This document shows positions 24,615 to 31,807 of a DNA stretch of 33,586 bases, piece by piece. Made by a program: the position numbers and the translations under genes. A model generated the notes under the pieces. That model saw only the letters and a program-made list of their open reading frames with translations, searched no databases and was not told the DNA's origin. Position 1 is the stretch's first letter. Every line of letters begins with the position of its first letter. Source of the stretch: Coriobacteriia bacterium (GTDB taxonomy: Bacteria > Actinomycetota > Coriobacteriia > Anaerosomatales > JAENZW01); assembly GCA_029858605.1 (NCBI GenBank), contig JAOUET010000003.1, positions 1 to 33,586 of the forward strand, in the 5' to 3' direction.

Positions 24615-25280
24615 TCATAGCACGATGCGACCGCGTGCCTTCGCGATCTCCTCGCGAGCGATCCTCGTGGCGATCTCGCGTCCGATCGCCGGCACGCTTA
24701 CCGCGATTGAGAACTTCCTGACAGGCGGTCGCTCGATCTTCGCCGGAACGTCGACGCGACCGAAGCGCTCAACAGCGGTTCGCGTCACGTAGCCCTTCTG
24801 GACCGCCGTGATGAGCGCGTCCTGATTCGCCGGCACGCTCACGACCGAGACCTCGAGCAGCTTCCACTTGGAGTAGACGCGTCGCACGTCCGGCCCGTAC
24901 TTGTCAACGTCGCCCTTCGTCGCGAGCCGCTCGCCGCCGTCCATCGGCACAAAGCCGATCGAGACGCCGCGGAGCACCTTCGCCTGTACCAGGCCGCGGA
25001 CGTAGTCGGGGAACCAGTCGCCGTCGAAGTCGTCCGGTCGCTTGGCGAACTCGAAGTCGGCGACGATCTCGCGATCGGCGCGCTTGAGCGTGACGGCCCG
25101 TCCGACAGGCTGCGACGTGTCGTGATTCCAGAGGAGGACCGGGTTCCGCTCGTAGTCCTTCGCGTTCATGCCGGCCGGAACCATCACCTCGCCGTCGCGG
25201 TCTACGCTGTCGGTGGAGATGGTCGCCTTGAACATGCCTCCGACGATCTCGCCTTCGGCCTTGAAGTCTTTACGGTTCAT
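24615..25280 (-). CDS. HK97-family prohead protease
   Basis: VDRDGE, NPVLLWNHD..PVGR, GVSIGF, LLEVSVVSVPAN; ATG 25280. Confidence 0.95.
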   Translation of the reverse strand: MNRKDFKAEGEIVGGMFKATISTDSVDRDGEVMVPAGMNAKDYERNPVLLWNHDTSQPVGRAVTLKRADREIVADFEFAKRPDDFDGDWFPDYVRGLVQAKVLRGVSIGFVPMDGGERLATKGDVDKYGPDVRRVYSKWKLLEVSVVSVPANQDALITAVQKGYVTRTAVERFGRVDVPAKIERPPVRKFSIAVSVPAIGREIATRIAREEIAKARGRIVL

Positions 25281-28267
25281 TCGGGCAGATCCTCGAGGAC
25301 GGGAATGATGTCGCAGCGGCAGTTCGGATGCAGAGGCGGTCCGGTCACGTTGTCGAAGTCGACGACGAAGCGCGAGCCGTCCGAGGCCGTTATGACGTCG
25401 CCGACCTTGTAGAACGCGTCGTTCATGCCTTTCGTCTGGTCTTCGCGTCCGACAGCCTCGCAGAAGGGACATGCCTCGGGCGCGACGAGCCACTTCTTGC
25501 CCGTGACCATGTCGGTCTGCTTCCAGGCCTGAACCTGCCCCTCGACGTAGGCTCGTGCCGACTCGGTCCTAGCGATGGTCTGGGCGCGAGCCGGATCGAA
25601 TCCCTTCGCCTCGATGTCGTCGGCGATCTCGTCGATCGTCTTGCCTTGCTCGAGGCCGCGACCGAGGATCGACTCGACGCGACGTACGGTCGTTCCGCCG
25701 ACGCTGTTCGCGAGTCGCGTCGTCGACCTGTTGACCCAGCGCTGCACCTCGTCGTTCGCGAAGTCGAAGCCGATAGCCTCGGCGACGTCGCGATCTGCAC
25801 GACGCAAGGCCGCCTCGATCGATGAGATGCCGCGATCTCCGCCGAGTTTCATGACCTGCTCGATATGCGGCTTCGCCGCGTCCTTCAGGTCTTGCGAGAA
25901 CTTCGCGATCGCGAGTTCCTGCCGTGCTCGATCGAAGAGCGCCGATCCCTCCAGGCCGCTCCCGCGAAGCGCCCTCACGACCGAGCCGATGCGATCGCGT
26001 CCGACCTTGACGAGCGTCCTCTCCAGTTGCCGGATGATCCGCATCTCGTCGCGGCTGTAGCCTGCGGCCTTCGCGTGGAAGCCGTCGTCCTGCCACGCCT
26101 GCGATTGTGTAATGGTCTCGCCTTTCACGTGCGAGCAGCCGCACTTCTTACTCTTCGACTCGCAGTAGTCGATCGCGATCGCGACCGCTTGGTCCTGCGG
26201 ATAGCCTTCGTCCATTAGCGTTCGGACCTTGTCCGAGACGCAGTCGTCAGCCTGCTTCGTGCCGTCCGTCTCGTCGTCGGCACGGTCCATCCTCTCGACG
26301 ACGCGAGCCGACCAGTCGCGGCCGTCGTCGCCGCCCCAGAGCAGCCACGCGATGAACCCGGCCGAAGGATCGCTCGGATCGTCCCAGCCGGGCCGCTTGT
26401 CGACCGCGTGCCTGGCGAAGTAGGACGCCATGCGACGGACGGTGTCCGGCGACAGTACCTCGCGGTTCTTGAGCTGCGTCGCTCGAGCGACTCCGACCTC
26501 GGTCCCGCCTCGGTTGAACTCGCCGCGGAGCCTGAGACCGCGATCGGCCGCCTCGGACATCTCCTCGGTCGGCGTGAAGTCTATCGCCTCGTACCGGGCC
26601 GGAGCGTCCGCCGTAATCGCCTTTACGGCCTCCTGAGGCGCTTCGGCCGCAACCGTGGCCTCCGGGACCGGCTGCACGTCCGAAGGTTGTATCGTCGCCT
26701 GAGCAGCCACCATACGAGCCGCCTGAGCCGGCGATAGACCAACCGCTACGAGGAGCGCCTCGCCAGCCTGAGGAGCCAGAGATCCGGCCGTGATCGCGAG
26801 CAGGATCTCTTGTGCCGCTTGGATCTGGGCGCCGTTGAGTGGCTCGACCTTCTCGACCGGAGCCGCCGGCTGCGTCGGCTCGACGGTCGGAGCCGTCTCG
26901 GGAGCGGCCTGCGTCGGCGCGTCCGTCAGGTCGCCGCCGAGATCGAGGCCGCTGCCGAGCGGCATCCCGCCGACGATCGGTGCGTCGGCGTCTGGATGGT
27001 CTATGGGATCGAAGCCGCGGAGCTCGCGAACCTCGTTGATGGTCAGCACGCCGGACGAGATGAGTCCCTGATGCTCCTGCAAGTCGAGCGCCCGGTTCGC
27101 CGGGACCGGATCGTCGTACGCGAGGACCGCCTCGTCCTGTAGGCCGAACATCGGAAGCAGCTTCTGGTTCAGCGTTTCCTCGTCAAGCCGCAGGAGCGGC
27201 AGGATCGTCGACTCGCGCCACTGCGCGAAGCCGGTCGTGCTGCTCGCGAGGTTCGGATCGTTCGCCTTGAGCATCGTGACCGGCACGCCGAAGATCGCCG
27301 CGATCTCCTCCACGATCTCGTCGCGACCGCCAAGATCCTTCGGAGGGAACGCCATCGGCTTTAGGTCGACCTGTCCGGTCAACGCGATGAACTTGCCGGC
27401 CTTGCCTGGACCGCGGAGCCGCTCGTTCACGGCTCGCTCGAACTCGGCGATCGCGTCCTCGGATGCGTCCTCGTTCTTGATCGTCGCGAGGTAGTCGGGC
27501 CGAGCGTGATTCGCCGCGAACGCAAGGTCCATCTCGTGGAACGCGTCGTTCAGGTCGACCGCGCCCCAGGCCGCTTCAACCTTGCCGAGACCGTAGAACA
27601 GGTCAGCCGGGTTCGGGCGCTTGAAGTGCAGCACCTCGTCGGGCGCGAGCGTGACCTTGTTCTGAGTCTCGCGGCCGTACAGGTAGCCGGCGATGAACTT
27701 CTGCGGATCAGGAATGATCTCGACCCACTGCGGAGGCATCGGCCAGAGTTCGGCCGGCACGCCGAGCGTGTTCGGGATCACGTGGAGATACGCGTTCCCG
27801 GTCAACTCCTGCCAGAGCGTACGAGTCGCGGCCAGGTCAAACCCGTTCATCGCCGGATTCACCTTGCGGAGCAGGTCGAGGACCGGATGCGCCTCGGTGA
27901 CCTCCTCGAAGTCGGCTCCGAAGTCATGCATTTTCGTCATCACGGAACGAGATGGCGTGCGAGCGGCATCGCCGAGGAGGTACGCCTTTCGTCCCTTGGC
28001 AGGCTTCGCCGTCCGGTACAACTTGCGGCCCGTGCCTCCCTTGACATACAGCCGCAGCGGCACGGCCGAGACGCCGAACGCGTTTATCTGGGCAGCCGCG
28101 TACACCCACGAGCGGTACTTGCGGACGGCTGCGGTCGCCGTGTAGACCGGCCGATGATCGATGCCCGAACCGCCGGAGATGATCCCGAGCGACGCCCGAA
28201 GGTAGCGGTTGACCTGCTGCTGCTCGGCCTGCTTGCGTCGGAAGAGGGATCGGATTCGATCGAGCAT
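25277..28267 (-). CDS. Portal protein fused to additional domains and a C-terminal MuF (SPP1 gp7-like) head morphogenesis domain
   Basis: Portal motifs LTGNAY, ELWPM.P, EVLHFK, IAAIFGVP, LTINEVR; MuF motifs RAQTIARTE, K.W...C..C, PPLHPNCRC; 996 aa from ATG 28267. Confidence 0.92.
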   Translation of the reverse strand: MLDRIRSLFRRKQAEQQQVNRYLRASLGIISGGSGIDHRPVYTATAAVRKYRSWVYAAAQINAFGVSAVPLRLYVKGGTGRKLYRTAKPAKGRKAYLLGDAARTPSRSVMTKMHDFGADFEEVTEAHPVLDLLRKVNPAMNGFDLAATRTLWQELTGNAYLHVIPNTLGVPAELWPMPPQWVEIIPDPQKFIAGYLYGRETQNKVTLAPDEVLHFKRPNPADLFYGLGKVEAAWGAVDLNDAFHEMDLAFAANHARPDYLATIKNEDASEDAIAEFERAVNERLRGPGKAGKFIALTGQVDLKPMAFPPKDLGGRDEIVEEIAAIFGVPVTMLKANDPNLASSTTGFAQWRESTILPLLRLDEETLNQKLLPMFGLQDEAVLAYDDPVPANRALDLQEHQGLISSGVLTINEVRELRGFDPIDHPDADAPIVGGMPLGSGLDLGGDLTDAPTQAAPETAPTVEPTQPAAPVEKVEPLNGAQIQAAQEILLAITAGSLAPQAGEALLVAVGLSPAQAARMVAAQATIQPSDVQPVPEATVAAEAPQEAVKAITADAPARYEAIDFTPTEEMSEAADRGLRLRGEFNRGGTEVGVARATQLKNREVLSPDTVRRMASYFARHAVDKRPGWDDPSDPSAGFIAWLLWGGDDGRDWSARVVERMDRADDETDGTKQADDCVSDKVRTLMDEGYPQDQAVAIAIDYCESKSKKCGCSHVKGETITQSQAWQDDGFHAKAAGYSRDEMRIIRQLERTLVKVGRDRIGSVVRALRGSGLEGSALFDRARQELAIAKFSQDLKDAAKPHIEQVMKLGGDRGISSIEAALRRADRDVAEAIGFDFANDEVQRWVNRSTTRLANSVGGTTVRRVESILGRGLEQGKTIDEIADDIEAKGFDPARAQTIARTESARAYVEGQVQAWKQTDMVTGKKWLVAPEACPFCEAVGREDQTKGMNDAFYKVGDVITASDGSRFVVDFDNVTGPPLHPNCRCDIIPVLEDLPE

Positions 28268-29472
28268 CAGATGACTCGGAAGCGGAACGTGGCCGGCCGG
28301 TTCGCCGCTCGACGTACGGCCAGGGCGAGCGCCATAACGCCGTCGTCGTGCATACTCGCTGGTGCAGTGTATCGAACGCCGGTACGCGTCGACTCCCACT
28401 CGAACGCCTCGAGCTCGACTCGAAGGAAGCCGTCAGGGAACCGGACCTCGCTCCGCTGGATCGCCGCGGCCAGTCCTTCGAGCAGTTGCTGACGGCTCGT
28501 CGCGGTGAACTTGAACCCCTCGACGTTGGGCCTGCCGCGCTGGAGATCCTCGACGATCGGATCGCCGACGCCGGTCGAGTCGATCATCGTCGGAACCTTG
28601 CCGATGGTGGACGCGATCCGCTCGCGTGTCGCCTGCCAGTCGAGCCGGAAGCGATCGAGGTAGCAGACCGTGCCGGTCGCATCGAGGCCGAGGATCACGG
28701 TCCAGTCTGTCGTCTTGGCCAGGTCGATCCCGAACGCAGCCGGCTCGGCCGTGCTGAGCGGTCGGATCGCCGCACGGATCGCGTCGAGGCCGAACGGGTT
28801 CCCGCCGTCGTCCGACGCCTCGACGAGGTAAAGCTCGCGGAACACGTGGTCGGGCAGTTGCCGCTTCGCCGCCTCGACCTCGTCCGAGGCGAGCACGCCG
28901 CCGGCGACCGCGTCGGCTGCGGTCAACTTGTGGTACGCGCAGTCCGGCTCCGCTCCGGCCTCGGCAAGCCTCGCCAGCCGGTACGCCCAGTTCTTCCGGC
29001 CCTTGAGGTTGCCGATGATCCGGCACGGGCCGCGTGTCGCCGACAGCGTCGACCTGACCGCGTGCCACGACTCCTCCGGGCAGCGTGTCGCCTCGTCGAT
29101 GACCGCGGCGTGAACGTCCTCGCCGTAGAGCGTGTCGGGGTTGTCTGCCGACTTGAACGCGACCTTCGAGCCGTTCGCGAGCTTGATGACGAGACGCGAC
29201 GTGTTCTCTTCCCAGATCCGCTTCTCGGGATCGGCGTCCCGGAGCATCGCCGCGAGCCGCTCGAAGCCGACCGTCTTGGTGACCTCGAACGTCGGCGCGA
29301 CCCACCAGCAGACCGAGTTCGGGCGGTTCCAGGCGAACTCCAGTACCCAGAGCAGGCAGCCAACGGTCTTGCCGCTCTTGGTGCTCGCCTCGATGATGAC
29401 GAACCGGGCCGGATCGCAGATCGCGTCGTGCTGCTTCCGGTACAGCGGCGGGAGTTCGATCGCGGCCTGCAT
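28267..29472 (-). CDS. terL: Terminase large subunit
   Basis: Walker A-like ASTKSGKT, Walker B AVIDEA, nuclease motifs GIDLA..D and HDD.V.ALALA; ATG 29472. Confidence 0.95.
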   Translation of the reverse strand: MQAAIELPPLYRKQHDAICDPARFVIIEASTKSGKTVGCLLWVLEFAWNRPNSVCWWVAPTFEVTKTVGFERLAAMLRDADPEKRIWEENTSRLVIKLANGSKVAFKSADNPDTLYGEDVHAAVIDEATRCPEESWHAVRSTLSATRGPCRIIGNLKGRKNWAYRLARLAEAGAEPDCAYHKLTAADAVAGGVLASDEVEAAKRQLPDHVFRELYLVEASDDGGNPFGLDAIRAAIRPLSTAEPAAFGIDLAKTTDWTVILGLDATGTVCYLDRFRLDWQATRERIASTIGKVPTMIDSTGVGDPIVEDLQRGRPNVEGFKFTATSRQQLLEGLAAAIQRSEVRFPDGFLRVELEAFEWESTRTGVRYTAPASMHDDGVMALALAVRRAANRPATFRFRVI

Positions 29473-29477
29473 GGATG

Positions 29478-29828
29478 CTAGTCGCGCACTCCGATTCGGA
29501 CCGGTGCGAGTTCTATCCGCTCGGTCGCCTCGCCGCCCTCGAGCCGCTCGATCTTGTCCAGCGTCGCGAGCGCGTTGATGTTGTCGCGGTCGAGCGCCGC
29601 GAGCAGTTCGATCGCTCGCAGCTTCTCGCGGTCGGTCTTGCCCGTGAGCGCGATCCGCTTCGCGATCAGCGGTGCGGCCGATCGGATGTCGTCCGGGATC
29701 GGCCAGCGGTTGCGTACCGCACGTATGAGCATCTGGAGCGTCTGCCGGTCGTGACCGGCGTCGCGCTCGATCTGCCGTGCGAGCGGCACGATCGCGGACG
29801 CGTCGACGGTTGGCTCGGTGTCGCTCAT
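29478..29828 (-). CDS. Putative terminase small subunit
   Basis: Helical 116-aa ORF directly upstream of terL. Confidence 0.55.
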   Translation of the reverse strand: MSDTEPTVDASAIVPLARQIERDAGHDRQTLQMLIRAVRNRWPIPDDIRSAAPLIAKRIALTGKTDREKLRAIELLAALDRDNINALATLDKIERLEGGEATERIELAPVRIGVRD

Positions 29829-30607
29829 TGAGTGTCAAGCGCCGGGATCGGAGTTGAACCGTCCCTTCCGGACTGGATGCCCGGCGTGCCGCCCTCAGCA
29901 CTTCCGGCGCGCTTGGCTCCGCGATACATGCTTGCGCCTATATCGCGAATCTTGGCGAATGGTATCTCCGGAACCGATAGCGCGCGACGCGCGTCGCGGT
30001 CTATGAAGAAAATGTAACGGAGTTGAAATCCTGGCAATGGCTTTGCGTCGGCCGCTTTCATCAATGCCTCTACCGAAGCGGAAGGCATCTTCAATCTTGC
30101 TCGCAAGATTCTTTGTTGCGGAGTTGGCCTTGCCGTCTTATATGTCATCTTGTGCGCAATCGTTCCATCTCCGAACTTGAATAGTTGGCTGTTCTTTTTT
30201 ATGGCCGTTAGCACAAAGCCTGACGCTCGATAGATCGCTCCGTCTCCGCATTGTGTCGCGTCAGCAAACGAGATTACCCACCGGAGTTGCGGATACGTCG
30301 CCTTCAGCCATCGCATCGCAAAGCCGATTGCGCGACTCTCGCTGTTCCGTGGAAGCCAATCCGCGAACGCCATGCGATTCAACTCGATGAACTCATGCCA
30401 TCGCGTGCCGCGTACGAGACCCTGTATCTTCCGCTTGTCCAAGGACGGGCCGAACTGCATCGCTCCTCCGCATCGTCCGTTCATGAATACGCCGAGATGG
30501 ACCTGCGAGTTCTGGACGATCTTTCCGGAGTAGTGCAGGTCTTGAATGATGCGGTTTCCGTCCGCCGCGGAAATCGGTTTGACGATGATGGTCTTAGCGT
30601 CACCCAT
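29825..30607 (-). CDS. mom: Mom-family (GNAT-fold) DNA adenine hypermodification enzyme
   Basis: HYS, G...FG, ELNRM, PRNSES.AI...MRWLK, VISFAD..Q...GAIYRASGF motifs; ATG 30607 overlaps the ParB gene end; locally AT-richer. Confidence 0.85.
   Translation of the reverse strand: MGDAKTIIVKPISAADGNRIIQDLHYSGKIVQNSQVHLGVFMNGRCGGAMQFGPSLDKRKIQGLVRGTRWHEFIELNRMAFADWLPRNSESRAIGFAMRWLKATYPQLRWVISFADATQCGDGAIYRASGFVLTAIKKNSQLFKFGDGTIAHKMTYKTARPTPQQRILRARLKMPSASVEALMKAADAKPLPGFQLRYIFFIDRDARRALSVPEIPFAKIRDIGASMYRGAKRAGSAEGGTPGIQSGRDGSTPIPALDTQ
29838..29910 (-). tRNA. Non-canonical tRNA-Gly(TCC)-like element embedded in the 3' end of the mom-like gene
   Basis: GCGCCGG AA GTGC TGAGGGCG GCAC G CCGGG CATCCAG TCCGG AAGG GACGG TTCAACT CCG(A)TC CCGGCGC T: 7-bp acceptor stem, 4-bp D stem, 5-bp anticodon stem with TCC at 29877-29875, T loop TTCAACT, discriminator U; no encoded CCA. 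Confidence 0.8.
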
Positions 30608-31211
30608 TGAGATAGGCCGCACATATGAACGTCAAGGCGTTGGCGTTGCCGTTCTCGTTGAGGTCTCCGGTATCGCCTCCTGACTGCTTTGCCTTGCGAA
30701 TCGCGGCGTCCACTGTTTCGGCTTGCTCGTCATGCAGCACGAACGTAACTTGCCGGAACGGTTCTCGATCATCGCTCGGCAGTTGCGGCGGCTCTACTGC
30801 GTCGATGTCGTACGATCCGGACAGGTCGTCGATCATCTGCCGCAACGCTTCGCTGTCCGTCTCGACCGTCGCAACCAGAGACGCGAGCGCGTCGGCATCG
30901 ACCGTCGCCATCGCCGCCAGCGGATCGAGCGTCGCGAGCAACTTGTCGGCCTCGGCCTCGTCAACATCGAGAACCAGGACCGGCACGGCCGTATCGCCGA
31001 CAGTCTCGGCGCGTAGGTGTCCGTCGATCAGTTCGAGCGTACCGTCCTCAAGTTCGCGAGCGACGAGCGCCTCGGCGAAGCCGATCTCGGCGAGCGTGCC
31101 GCGGAGCGCGTCGGCCTGCTCCTTCGGATGCGTACGCCAGTTCTTCGGGTTCGGTCGCAGGCTAGAAGCCGGTACGCGACGCAGTTCCTTGATGCGGTCT
31201 CGGATGTTCAC
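30600..31211 (-). CDS. ParB/Srx N-terminal domain protein
   Basis: L.PNPKNWRTH...Q...L...L.EIGF, LIDGHLR, VPVLVLD; GTG 31211 after GGAGG. Confidence 0.85.
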   Translation of the reverse strand: MNIRDRIKELRRVPASSLRPNPKNWRTHPKEQADALRGTLAEIGFAEALVARELEDGTLELIDGHLRAETVGDTAVPVLVLDVDEAEADKLLATLDPLAAMATVDADALASLVATVETDSEALRQMIDDLSGSYDIDAVEPPQLPSDDREPFRQVTFVLHDEQAETVDAAIRKAKQSGGDTGDLNENGNANALTFICAAYLNG

Positions 31212-31807
31212 TCGGTGACCTCCAGCAGCTCGAAGAACCGCGTATGCAGTTCCTCGACATCGAAGACCTGCGGATCGACCCACCAGTCATCATGAGCGAC
31301 CTCGGCGAACAACTCGTAGCCGTTGGCCTCCATAAAGGCACGCATACGCTCCTGCCGAGCCGGACCGCCTTCGCGGTACGAGTCGTGCTCAAGCGCCACG
31401 ATGCCGAACCGGATCGCGTCCCACGGCAGGATACGCATCGCGTACTCGGTCAGCGTCGGAGGCTCCAGGTCGAGCGACAGGAAGTCGCAGCGGCCGCTCG
31501 GGAACACGGTCGAGACCAGCGTCCTCCAGTCGACGAGCAGAGCGTCAGGCAGCACGAAGCCGGCGCGTCGTTCGCGACGGAGCGCCTCGTGGTGCTCGAT
31601 GTCGCAAAGGACGCCGGTCCAGTTCAGGCCGCGTTCAAGCGCGAGCGTGTTCGAGAGTCGGATCGGCTCGCCGGCTCCGATGTCGAGGAACGTCCCGTGC
31701 TGCTTCCGGTTGTACGCCTCGATCACGAACCGATCCGCGCCGAGTTGACCGCGTAGCAGTTCGGGATCGATGCCGGAACACGGCAGATCGATAAAGGTTC
31801 TTCCCAT
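31208..31807 (-). CDS. FkbM-family (Methyltransf_21-like) methyltransferase
   Basis: GQ.G.D, GTFLDIGA......SNT..LE...NW.G, DFLSLDLE, EHD, GY, DDWWV; ATG 31807. Confidence 0.85.
   Translation of the reverse strand: MGRTFIDLPCSGIDPELLRGQLGADRFVIEAYNRKQHGTFLDIGAGEPIRLSNTLALERGLNWTGVLCDIEHHEALRRERRAGFVLPDALLVDWRTLVSTVFPSGRCDFLSLDLEPPTLTEYAMRILPWDAIRFGIVALEHDSYREGGPARQERMRAFMEANGYELFAEVAHDDWWVDPQVFDVEELHTRFFELLEVTE

What the first reader, a model, noticed from the sequence alone, without database searches (positions are those of the whole stretch)
29838..29910. tRNA-Gly(UCC)-like cloverleaf hidden in the last codons of the Mom-family DNA modification gene: a candidate dedicated glycyl-donor system
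Seen: the odd C-terminal peptide of the mom-like ORF (RAGSAEGGTPGIQSGRDGSTPIPAL) is encoded by a 73-nt sequence that folds into a full cloverleaf, with acceptor GCGCCGG/CCGGCGC, D stem GTGC/GCAC, anticodon stem CCGGG/TCCGG around CA-TCC-AG, and T arm GACGG-TTCAACT-CCG(A)TC. It has the bacterial GlyRS identity set (G1-C72, C2-G71, G3-C70, C35, C36, discriminator U73). It departs from canonical tRNAs at U8 (A), U33 (A), a bulged A in the T stem where EF-Tu binds, and no encoded CCA. Established: phage Mu Mom makes N6-carbamoylmethyl-adenine, whose side chain is a glycinamide unit; GNAT-fold enzymes such as FemXAB use aminoacyl-tRNA donors; staphylococci keep non-proteinogenic tRNA-Gly with altered T arms that evade EF-Tu. 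I also recall recent work reporting that Mom uses Gly-tRNA-Gly, which should be verified. Inference: the phage encodes, inside the enzyme's own gene, a chargeable but translation-excluded tRNA-Gly mimic that supplies glycine for DNA hypermodification. Excising it would also truncate the mom mRNA and cut 10 nt before the putative terS start, giving built-in regulation.
Basis: partly seen in the sequence, partly recalled or inferred. Interest (0 to 1): 0.95.

Follow-up and report, generated by a model that had tools for sequence, protein, structure and literature searches.

The report
Mom-linked glycine tRNA-like RNA gene
The end of a phage DNA-modification gene (mom) carries a real, widely conserved but non-standard glycine-tRNA look-alike that probably gives the enzyme its own private supply of activated glycine.

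Summary
Observation confirmed and generalised. The same 65-74 nt element lies beside Mom genes in 95 of 107 related loci (86 distinct sequences), including two tandem copies in cultured Psychrobacter phage vB_PmaS_Y8A, whose paper reports no tRNA genes. All four helices covary (91.6-98% of cells paired against about 70% in shuffles). The near-invariant bases are the bacterial GlyRS identity set: G1:C72 and C2:G71 86/86, U73 85/86, CC at the centre of the anticodon hairpin 85/86. Features needed for decoding are relaxed: U33 30/85, U8 26/86, G at position 55 in 55/76, short D region in 36/85. A bulged A in the T stem is a family hallmark (76/86). The mom stop codon lies before, inside or after the element, in all three frames. 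The element can also sit on the opposite strand or upstream of mom, so conservation is at the RNA level, not the peptide level. In an inverse search using the RNA motif alone, 72 of 80 loci held Mom. Best explanation, untested: a GlyRS-charged, translation-insulated glycyl donor for Mom, which is published to use Gly-tRNAGly. My searches found no prior description.

The parts
29838..29910 (-). tRNAGly-like RNA element (73 nt). Acceptor 5' strand 29904-29910, D arm 29886-29901, anticodon arm 29868-29884 with UCC at 29877-29875, T arm 29846-29863 with bulged A at 29848, acceptor 3' strand 29839-29845, discriminator U at 29838. No encoded CCA.
   Evidence: Sequence; RNAfold; Rfam tRNA-clan hit E 4.4e-5; own covariance model R1 84.6 bits; family covariation.
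29825..30622 (-). mom-family ORF (265 aa from GTG 30622; the ATG at 30607 fits the family N-terminus better). The Mom domain ends with the motif G-A-S-M-Y-R-G at 29918-29938. The last 30 residues are read through the RNA element.
   Evidence: Pfam PF25680 E 2.3e-52, residues 12-224; PDB 8BV8; alignment A2.
29478..29828 (-). Small ORF (116 aa) in the terS position. Its ATG overlaps the mom stop (ATGA) and starts 9 nt after the element's discriminator base.
   Evidence: ORF list; no Pfam hit. Position before terL as in phage Y8A, where a terminase small subunit is annotated at that place. No sequence homolog in the related loci.
28267..29472 (-). Terminase large subunit gene.
   Evidence: Pfam Terminase_6N E 2.7e-7 and Terminase_3 E 7.1e-5.
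30600..31283 (-). ParB N-terminal-domain-like gene directly upstream of mom; a conserved partner of this Mom clade.
   Evidence: Pfam ParB_N E 0.0012, below the cut-off. tblastn finds a homolog upstream on the same strand in 84 of 106 clade loci, of which 91 have room upstream. Annotated ParB/sulfiredoxin in phage Y8A.

Best explanation
The 73-nt element is a member of a large, previously unannotated family of tRNAGly-derived RNA genes that travel with one clade of Mom-family DNA glycyl-transferase genes in phages and prophages. The proposed mechanism has four steps. (1) The RNA is transcribed with, or beside, mom in the late region, and host tRNA-processing enzymes trim it. The CCA end is encoded in 53 of 86 distinct members and must be added by the host enzyme in the others, including the window. 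(2) Host GlyRS charges the RNA with glycine, because it keeps the whole bacterial glycine identity set. (3) It is a poor substrate for EF-Tu and the ribosome. It has a bulged A in the T stem, usually lacks U33, U8 and U55, has a shortened or closed anticodon loop, and often lacks a D arm. It therefore forms a private pool of Gly-RNA. (4) The neighbouring Mom enzyme uses that pool to glycylate adenine N6 in phage DNA without competing with translation. Shown here: the existence, structure, conservation pattern and genomic linkage of the element. Inferred: steps 1 to 4.
For: Linkage. All 25 IMG/VR Mom homologs found with the window protein carry the element 28-55 nt after the start of the C-terminal Mom motif. 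Model R1 finds it in 95 of 107 clade loci, giving 97 hits and 86 distinct sequences. Of the rest, 2 are cut by contig ends and 10 lack it. Cultured phage vB_PmaS_Y8A, which was not used to build the model, has two tandem copies in the mom-terS gap (E about 1e-7).

Inverse test. A 26-nt RNA-only pattern searched in IMG/VR returned 80 loci on other contigs. Of these, 79 hold a full element and 72 encode Mom on the same strand. Another 5 have no room upstream to judge.

Structure. On the MAFFT-only alignment A1, 91.6% of cells pair against 70.3% in shuffles, and 16 of 21 pairs change on both sides. On A4 the figures are 98.0% against 68.7%, and 19 of 21 pairs. Slid controls give 36-42%.

Identity set. 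G1:C72 and C2:G71 86/86, G3 83/86, U73 85/86. CC is centred in the anticodon hairpin in 85/86, with N34 = U 43, A 34, C 4, G 4, so always a glycine anticodon. These are the determinants listed for bacterial GlyRS in PMC10464925 (passages read). Wherever ARAGORN types the element it calls Gly: 8 of 11 detections in the clade set and 3 of 7 in the pattern set. The rest are untyped, and no other amino acid is ever assigned.

Relaxed decoding features. U33 in 30/85, U8 in 26/86, nt 55 is G in 55/76, a 10-14 nt D region in 36/85, and a bulged A in 76/86, where the bulged base is A in all 76.

RNA-level rather than peptide-level conservation. Among 82 same-strand distinct elements the mom stop lies before the element in 14, inside it in 17 and after it in 51. 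Read-through occurs in all three frames (22/22/7). Four distinct elements are on the opposite strand, and 9 loci have the element upstream of mom.

Biochemical premise and precedent. Mu Mom transfers Gly from Gly-tRNAGly, and Gly-tRNAAla does not serve (PMC13219725, sections 10 and 14 read). Staphylococcal non-proteogenic tRNAGly bind EF-Tu poorly and carry UGC/UGU instead of UUC in the T loop (PMC7826273, abstract and introduction read).

Feasibility in the host bin. The MAG holds a GlyRS beta subunit and a PolyA_pol/CCA-family gene.
Against: There is no expression, processing or charging data. No RNA run on record holds the stretch.

In the window, and in 51 of 82 same-strand distinct cases, the mom ORF runs right through the element; in 17 more the stop lies inside it. 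Cutting the RNA out at its 5' end would then leave a mom message without a stop codon, which is awkward for a simple 'separate tRNA gene' model. The element is also stop-free in the mom frame more often (56/82) than in the other two frames (76/164).

The window copy has no encoded CCA, although the three tRNA-Gly genes of the MAG that I compared encode it.

Mu Mom works with all three ordinary E. coli tRNAGly isoacceptors (PMC13219725), and Mu-type and other distant Mom loci have no such element (0 of 10 adjacent). A dedicated donor is therefore not required for Mom chemistry.

Ten clade loci lack the element.

This clade has an invariant Gln where Mu Mom has the essential R151, so its chemistry or co-substrate binding may differ from Mu's.

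PMC10464925 reports that GlyRS needs the arms and the L-shape of the tRNA. Members without a D arm might therefore charge poorly.

R1 also scores ordinary host tRNAs at 41-45 bits, so R1 scores alone are not specific to this family.
Confidence: 0.6

Rival explanations
1. An uncharged tRNA mimic that acts by binding. It could be a regulator or decoy that binds Mom (limiting a toxic enzyme, like an RNA antitoxin), or that binds GlyRS or EF-Tu. It could also be a cis-acting element of the mom-terS message, whose folding or cleavage sets the Mom and terminase levels.
For: The element is tightly fused to the mom 3' end; its start lies -1 to 91 nt after the Mom motif in 84 of 86 distinct cases. The ORF reads through it in 51 of 82, and it is stop-free in the mom frame more often than in the other frames. 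In the window there is an ATGA overlap with the next gene. Silva et al. speculate that Mom recognises the acceptor end, which a mimic would also need (PMC13219725, section 14).
Against: The opposite-strand copies (4 distinct) and upstream copies (9 loci) cannot act in cis on the mom 3' end. C35-C36 are conserved in 85/86 together with U73 and an encoded CCA in 53/86. That is the signature of synthetase recognition, which a pure Mom-binding mimic would not need.
Confidence: 0.15
2. An ordinary phage-encoded tRNA-Gly used in translation, either for codon supply or to replace host tRNAs destroyed by anti-phage nucleases. On this reading it merely happens to sit near mom.
For: Some members are close enough to canonical for ARAGORN to call them tRNA-Gly(UCC) (L041, L042, L065, L096, L104/105, L167, L183, L189). 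One reaches 50.3 bits on Rfam tRNA (L064). R1 places host tRNA-Gly genes among its best canonical hits.
Against: ARAGORN misses the element in 96 of 107 clade loci. Only 2 of 20 sampled loci reach the Rfam tRNA cut-off. U33 is absent in 55 of 85. The anticodon is ACC in 34 of 85; that ACC is not a normal bacterial anticodon is recalled, not tested here. Maximally paired anticodon hairpins leave loops of 3-6 nt in 82 of 85, the T stem is bulged in 76/86, and 36/85 have no D arm. Linkage to Mom is near-obligate in both search directions.
Confidence: 0.1
3. The RNA is the target of this Mom-clade enzyme rather than its donor. GNAT toxins such as TacT act on Gly-tRNAGly in this way. Alternatively, this clade performs a different reaction from Mu Mom.
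For: The clade has an invariant Gln at the position of the essential R151 of Mu Mom, plus its own C-terminal motif. GNAT enzymes that modify tRNA are known (PMC13219725, Fig. 5 legend, read).
Against: R111, S124 and D149 equivalents are invariant (R83, S96, D121 in A2). The gene sits between a ParB-like DNA-binding gene and the packaging genes, the place expected for a modifier of virion DNA.
Confidence: 0.08
4. No RNA function at all: a chance fold, a conserved C-terminal peptide of Mom, or a relic of a tRNA-gene integration site.
For: The single-sequence fold is only marginally better than shuffles (z -2.05). The tails of several homologs look alike as peptides.
Against: Compensatory changes occur in all four helices. 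The element sits in all three frames, on both strands and on either side of mom. It lies inside the late region of a complete virion genome (Y8A) and not at a prophage end. Tandem duplicates occur in L026, L103 and L157.
Confidence: 0.02

Closest known systems
Non-proteogenic tRNAGly isoacceptors of Staphylococcus, the glycine donors for the FmhB/FemA/FemB peptidoglycan transferases (Rietmeyer et al., PMC7826273; abstract and introduction read)
   Same: Both are extra tRNAGly(UCC)-type RNAs that keep glycine identity but have altered T and D regions. The staphylococcal ones have UGC/UGU instead of UUC in the T loop; here nt 55 is G in 55 of 76. The staphylococcal RNAs bind EF-Tu and ribosomes poorly and feed a GNAT-fold aminoacyl-transferase outside translation. 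That is the working model proposed here.
   Different: Those are chromosomal genes of one bacterial genus with intact cloverleaves, and they are not gene-linked to the transferase. Here the RNA is phage-borne, physically fused to or abutting the enzyme gene, and far more degenerate (bulged T stem, shortened loops, D arm often lost). The acceptor of the glycine would be DNA. Descent from the staphylococcal lineage was not tested and is unlikely.
Phage Mu Mom using host Gly-tRNAGly (Silva et al., PMC13219725 and bioRxiv 10.1101/2023.03.24.534169)
   Same: The same enzyme family (PF25680; 8BV8, E 2.4e-25), with R111, S124 and D149 equivalents conserved. The same co-substrate class is expected.
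   Different: Mu relies on host tRNAGly and has no such element next to mom. The window's clade is about 35% identical to Mu Mom over the tblastn match. It has its own C-terminal motif, Gln in place of R151, a ParB-like partner gene and the linked RNA. The terms 'tRNA-like', 'phage-encoded tRNA' and 'C-terminal' occur 0 times in the main text of that paper. I could not see its supplements.
Ordinary phage-encoded tRNA genes
   Same: tRNA-derived genes carried in phage genomes. A minority of members would pass as tRNA-Gly(UCC).
   Different: Most members fail standard tRNA finders. They lack the near-universal U33, U8 and U55. They are bound to one enzyme gene rather than to tRNA clusters or codon usage.
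3' tRNA-like structures of plant RNA viruses, and tRNA-mimic operators such as the thrS leader (both recalled, not searched here)
   Same: A tRNA-like fold embedded in a messenger. The viral ones are aminoacylated by host synthetases.
   Different: Those sit at a genome's 3' end or at a ribosome-binding site and act in cis. This element also occurs as a separate gene, on the other strand or upstream of mom.

Membership tests
Canonical elongator tRNA (Rfam RF00005 / ARAGORN) | Reaches the curated Rfam gathering score, or is called by a standard tRNA finder | tested here: not met
   Window: 0 Rfam matches at gathering. The best tRNA-clan hit is 33.6 bits against a cut-off of 47, at E 4.4e-5. ARAGORN finds 0. 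Family: 2 of 20 sampled loci reach RF00005. ARAGORN calls the element in 11 of 107 clade loci.
Canonical elongator tRNA (Rfam RF00005 / ARAGORN) | Four-helix cloverleaf with a 7-bp acceptor stem | tested here: met
   Window sequence. Acceptor 7/7 paired in 84 of 86. All helices covary.
Canonical elongator tRNA (Rfam RF00005 / ARAGORN) | U8, U33, a 7-nt open anticodon loop, T54-U55-C56, a regular 5-bp T stem (feature list recalled) | tested here: not met
   Window: A8, A33, C32 and G38 able to pair, bulged A in the T stem. Family: U8 26/86, U33 30/85, U55 21/76, bulge 76/86.
Bacterial glycine identity (substrate of alpha2beta2 GlyRS) | G1:C72, C2:G71, U73, C35, C36 (PMC10464925); G3:C70 (recalled from the older literature) | tested here: met
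   The window has all of them. Family: 86/86, 86/86, 85/86, and CC centred in 85/86; G3 in 83/86.
Bacterial glycine identity (substrate of alpha2beta2 GlyRS) | Actually aminoacylated with glycine; has a CCA end | not testable with these tools
   CCA is not encoded in the window and is encoded in 53/86. The MAG has PolyA_pol/CCA-family and GlyRS-beta genes. There is no charging assay.
Mom-linked tRNAGly-like RNA (family defined here) | Lies within about 100 nt of a Mom-family gene | tested here: met
   The window element starts 7 nt after the Mom C-terminal motif. In the family the start lies -1 to 91 nt after that motif in 84 of 86 distinct elements.
Mom-linked tRNAGly-like RNA (family defined here) | GCG...CGC-U acceptor end, NCC in the anticodon hairpin, T arm of 5 bp with a bulged A after the third 3'-strand base | tested here: met
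   The window is a top-scoring hit, tied with L003 at 84.6 bits, with model R1. By construction it was in the seed alignment. Independent members: L026, L031-L110, L125-L204.
Staphylococcal non-proteogenic tRNAGly | Weak EF-Tu and ribosome binding; preferred by the transferase | not testable with these tools
   There is only indirect sequence evidence.
Staphylococcal non-proteogenic tRNAGly | UGC/UGU instead of UUC in the T loop; membership of the staphylococcal lineage | tested here: not met
   The window T loop begins UUC, although nt 55 is G in 55 of 76 family members. The loci come from many phyla and none from staphylococci. The resemblance is in how it works, not in descent.
Mom protein family (PF25680) | Pfam gathering score; similarity to the solved Mu Mom; catalytic R111, S124, D149, R151 | tested here: met
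   178.1 bits against a cut-off of 27.1. 8BV8 at E 2.4e-25. R83, S96 and D121 are invariant in A2. The exception is Mu R151, which aligns with an invariant Gln (Q124).

The most novel reading that the evidence does not exclude
Many phages carry a private, translation-insulated aminoacyl-carrier RNA. It is a stripped-down tRNAGly that keeps only what GlyRS and Mom need, and it acts as a dedicated cofactor for hypermodifying their own DNA. In about two thirds of cases the carrier is written into the enzyme's own message. Releasing the carrier would then consume the message, so enzyme level and donor supply would be coupled.
Probability: 0.5. Interest if true: 0.95.

Novelty: new variant of a known kind. 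Interest (0 to 1): 0.9.

Why it matters
Mom was shown only recently to take glycine from charged tRNA (PMC13219725). That leaves open how a late-expressed phage enzyme competes with EF-Tu for Gly-tRNAGly. A dedicated phage-encoded donor RNA would answer this for a large clade. It would be the first gene-linked pair of enzyme and tRNA-like cofactor for DNA modification. It would also be a natural example of a minimal orthogonal carrier recognised by GlyRS but not by the translation machinery.

It provides a ready-made mutational map of what GlyRS, and presumably Mom, require.

There is also a practical point for annotation. Standard tools miss the element; the Y8A genome paper reports no tRNA genes (PMC10434257). 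Gene callers therefore extend mom ORFs through it, producing spurious C-terminal tails.

Tried and rejected
Recent copy of a host tRNA. The element shares only 41-45 identical columns (of 76-80) with the three tRNA-Gly genes of the MAG. Rejected.

Close DNA relatives among named phages. blastn found only a 7% match to phage Y8A, so I moved to protein-guided loci.

Expression. The look-up of sequencing runs listed no RNA holder: 4 runs of one study, shares 0.06-0.08, probably DNA. Laying them showed only short contig pieces of relatives over the terS-like ORF and two small pieces of mom. None spans the element, so this says nothing about expression.

Element in more distant Mom loci. R1 with filters off on Mu, JD024, pAEv1818, PAN70, Melnitz-2, RaK2, Stockyards, a Porphyromonas phage, Darwin and the second Mom gene of Y8A found none adjacent. 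The single hit was an odd tRNA 930 nt upstream in Melnitz-2.

R1 as a family-specific detector. Rejected, because it scores host tRNA-Gly and tRNA-Thr genes at 41-45 bits. Adjacency to Mom and the bulged T stem carry the specificity instead.

Clade loci without the element after a filters-off search: L047, L048 (only a 10.9-bit degenerate tRNA-like stretch), L051, L067, L079, L084, L087, L088, L089, L110. L032 and L098 end too early to judge.

One R1 hit was dropped as spurious before counting: L039, minus strand, 21.6 bits, 88 nt, not next to mom.

Prior description. Searches and reads found no mention of a mom-linked tRNA-like gene.

Full report
What is at the coordinates. There is a 7-bp acceptor stem, a 4-bp D stem, and a 5-bp anticodon stem around C-A-UCC-A-G. 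The T arm has a UUCAACU loop and one bulged A in its 3' strand. The discriminator is U, positions 8 and 33 are A, and no CCA follows. The stretch encodes the last residues of a 265-aa ORF (29825-30622, minus strand). That ORF is a clear Mom-family protein (PF25680, 178 bits; Mu Mom structure 8BV8, E 2.4e-25). The mom stop codon overlaps the start of the next ORF as ATGA. Then come a terminase large subunit and a portal-MuF fusion, and a ParB-like gene precedes mom.

How the element looks on its own. Taken alone it is marginal. The RNAfold z-score is -2.05. ARAGORN finds no tRNA in the window. Nothing in the window reaches an Rfam gathering score. A permissive Infernal run does give a full-length tRNA-clan match at E 4.4e-5.

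Relatives, first set. The window's Mom protein retrieved 25 IMG/VR loci at 45-71% identity. In every one, a 67-73 nt stretch begins 28-55 nt after the start of the conserved C-terminal Mom motif (G-A-G-M-Y-K-G). It has a fully paired 7-bp acceptor stem that starts GCG and ends CGC followed by U. ARAGORN itself calls a tRNA-Gly(ACC) there in L011 and an untyped tRNA in L024 and L025. I aligned the 19 distinct sequences with MAFFT (A1), wrote the cloverleaf on the alignment and built covariance model R1. The window's whole contig is the MAG contig C205. The element is not a recent copy of the MAG's tRNA-Gly genes, sharing only 41-45 identical columns with them.

Relatives, wider set. A Mom protein alignment (A2) retrieved 80 loci from species-representative genomes of many phyla. 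They include Bradyrhizobium, Limnohabitans, Gallibacterium, Larkinella, Clostridia, Bacteroidota and candidate phyla. With default filters R1 finds the element next to mom in 59 of them. With filters off it finds 9 more. Ten loci lack it and two end too early to judge.

The cultured Psychrobacter phage vB_PmaS_Y8A was not in the model. It has the same gene order: ParB, Mom, gap, terS, terL, portal. It carries two tandem copies in the 165-nt gap, each ending in U-CCA. Its GenBank record annotates nothing there, ARAGORN finds nothing, and the genome paper states that no tRNA genes were identified (PMC10434257, passages read).

In total there are 97 hits in 95 of 107 clade loci, giving 86 distinct sequences.

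Structure. On the MAFFT-only alignment A1, 91.6% of cells form standard pairs against 70.3% in shuffles. Sixteen of 21 pairs change on both sides, and slid controls give 39-42%. On the model-fitted alignments the figures are 95.2% (A3) and 98.0% (A4), where 19 of 21 pairs change on both sides. Acceptor positions 4-7 show four to five pair types each, whereas positions 1-3 hardly vary. G-U pairs occur, which places the structure on this strand.

What is fixed and what is free (86 distinct sequences).

Fixed:
- G1:C72 and C2:G71 in 86/86, G3 in 83/86, U73 in 85/86.
- A CC dinucleotide centred in the anticodon hairpin in 85/86. The base before it is U in 43, A in 34, C in 4 and G in 4, so the anticodon always reads glycine.
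- A 5-bp T stem with one bulged base after the third 3'-strand nucleotide in 76/86. That bulged base is A in all 76.

These fixed bases match the determinants reported for bacterial GlyRS: G1:C72, C2:G71, C35, C36 and U73 (PMC10464925, abstract and passages).

Free or lost:
- U33 is present in only 30/85 and U8 in 26/86.
- Nucleotide 55 is G in 55/76.
- Maximally paired anticodon hairpins leave loops of 3-6 nt in 82 of 85.
- The region between the acceptor and the anticodon stem is only 10-14 nt, with no D arm, in 36/85.
- CCA is encoded in 53/86 and is not encoded in the window.

RNA-level, not peptide-level, conservation. Among 82 distinct same-strand elements, the mom stop codon lies before the element in 14, inside it in 17 and after it in 51. 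The read-through cases use all three frames (22, 22 and 7). Four distinct elements (L091, L092, L104/105, L106) are encoded on the opposite strand just downstream of mom.

One oddity remains. The element is free of stop codons in the mom frame in 56/82, against 76/164 in the other two frames. These counts are of related sequences, not independent events.

Inverse test. I searched IMG/VR with an RNA-only pattern made of the bulged T arm, the CGC of the acceptor 3' strand and U73. None is on a contig of the first set.
- R1 finds a full-length element in 79 of the 80.
- A Mom homolog lies on the same strand in 72.
- In 62 of those the element follows mom, and in 1 it lies 1.3 kb downstream.
- In 9 it lies immediately upstream of a more distant Mom (28-43% identity in the best-scoring matched segment).
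- Five of the other eight have under 200 nt upstream and cannot be judged. L140, L202 and L180 have none.
- The two sets together hold 164 distinct element sequences.

Limits of the association. Ten more distant Mom loci show no adjacent element with filters off. They are Mu, JD024, pAEv1818, PAN70, Melnitz-2, RaK2, Stockyards, a Porphyromonas phage, Darwin and the second, Mu-like Mom gene of Y8A. The system therefore belongs to particular Mom clades. In the clade studied here a ParB-like gene is a third conserved partner (84 of 106 loci). Equivalents of Mu R111, S124 and D149 are invariant, but the essential R151 of Mu aligns with an invariant Gln (residue roles from PMC13219725, section 13).

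Literature. Silva et al. show that Mu Mom transfers glycine from Gly-tRNAGly to N6 of adenine in double-stranded DNA. All three E. coli isoacceptors serve and Gly-tRNAAla does not. The authors suggest that recognition is at the acceptor end (PMC13219725, abstract and sections 10, 13, 14, 38 read; bioRxiv version, abstract and outline only).

Rietmeyer et al. describe staphylococcal non-proteogenic tRNAGly (PMC7826273, abstract and introduction). These bind EF-Tu and ribosomes poorly, have UGC/UGU in place of UUC in the T loop, and are preferred by the Fem transferase FmhB. That is a close functional precedent.

Eight full-text searches turned up no description of a mom-linked tRNA-like gene.

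Most likely mechanism. I put about 60% on a dedicated glycyl donor. On this model the RNA is made from the late transcript or from its own strand. It is trimmed like a tRNA, given CCA where this is not encoded, charged by host GlyRS and handed to Mom. Its bulged T stem and crippled anticodon and D regions keep it away from EF-Tu and the ribosome. That the T-stem pairs 49:65 to 51:63 are the EF-Tu contact region is recalled, not tested here. The MAG encodes a GlyRS beta subunit and a CCA/poly(A)-polymerase family enzyme, although assignment of a phage contig to a bin is not proof of its host.

The main difficulty is the read-through arrangement in the window and in most relatives. Excision would leave a mom message with no stop codon. 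Either only part of the transcripts is processed, or this is a built-in limit on a toxic enzyme, or the RNA sometimes works while still attached to the message.

Rivals. These are an uncharged mimic acting as a regulator or decoy (15%), an ordinary translational tRNA (10%), the RNA as target rather than donor of the enzyme (8%), and no RNA function at all (2%).

Verdict. The biochemical steps remain to be shown. I found no prior description within the searched library.

Noticed in passing
window 29900-30800: The body of the mom gene and the start of the ParB-like gene form a low-GC island (0.46-0.59 in 200-nt windows), against 0.65-0.72 in the flanks. The tRNA-like part itself is 71% GC. This suggests the module was acquired from a lower-GC source, or that composition constraints differ between the RNA and the protein parts.
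   Followed up: no
window 30600-31283 (-); L026 1897-2508: A ParB N-terminal-domain-like gene sits directly upstream of mom on the same strand in 84 of 106 clade loci. The conserved module is therefore ParB-like + Mom + tRNAGly-like RNA. The role of the ParB-like protein is unknown.
   Followed up: partly
window Mom residue Q124 (alignment A2): The residue aligned with Mu Mom R151 is an invariant Gln in this clade, while R111, S124 and D149 equivalents are kept. In Mu, R151A abolished activity (PMC13219725, section 13).
   Followed up: partly
L026 3162-3226 and 3234-3299; L103 1499-1564 and 1574-1639; L157 4378-4444 and 4454-4519: Three loci carry two tandem copies of the element. Phage Y8A also has a second, Mu-like Mom gene at the other end of its genome (L124 1394-2158) with no element beside it.
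   Followed up: partly
L170, L165, L182, L181, L195, L191, L130, L175, L177: In a second arrangement the element, here more canonical and with an encoded CCA, lies immediately upstream of a more distant Mom homolog. The stop-to-stop frame of that mom gene runs over the element.
   Followed up: partly
L119 497-570 (Methylophilales phage Melnitz-2): An odd tRNA lies inside an annotated hypothetical CDS, about 930 nt upstream of a distant Mom homolog. ARAGORN calls it Trp(CCA), but the loop reads A-U-U-C-C-A-A-A and could present UCC. It lacks the GCG/CGC-U end and the bulge, so I did not count it as a member.
   Followed up: partly
L048 3240-3296: A low-GC locus from a bin labelled Tenericutes has only a degenerate tRNA-like stretch after mom (10.9 bits). 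It has a T arm and a CCA but a different acceptor end and no clear anticodon arm. It may be a further-reduced variant.
   Followed up: no
window 29828 and 29916: Contigs of relatives in four aquatic metagenome runs match the terS-like ORF and stop matching exactly at its start (29828). Short pieces match 29883-29916 and then diverge. This hints at mosaic joints flanking the element. Only one study is involved and the contigs are short.
   Followed up: no
window 25277-28399 (-): A single 1040-aa ORF appears to fuse a portal protein with a Mu F-like head-morphogenesis part. In phage Y8A these are separate genes (PMC10434257 table passage). No domain search was run on this ORF.
   Followed up: no
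82 same-strand elements (all loci): The element is free of stop codons in the mom reading frame in 56/82, against 76/164 in the other two frames. Read-through of mom into the RNA may therefore itself be favoured. The sequences are related, so this is not a formal test.
   Followed up: partly
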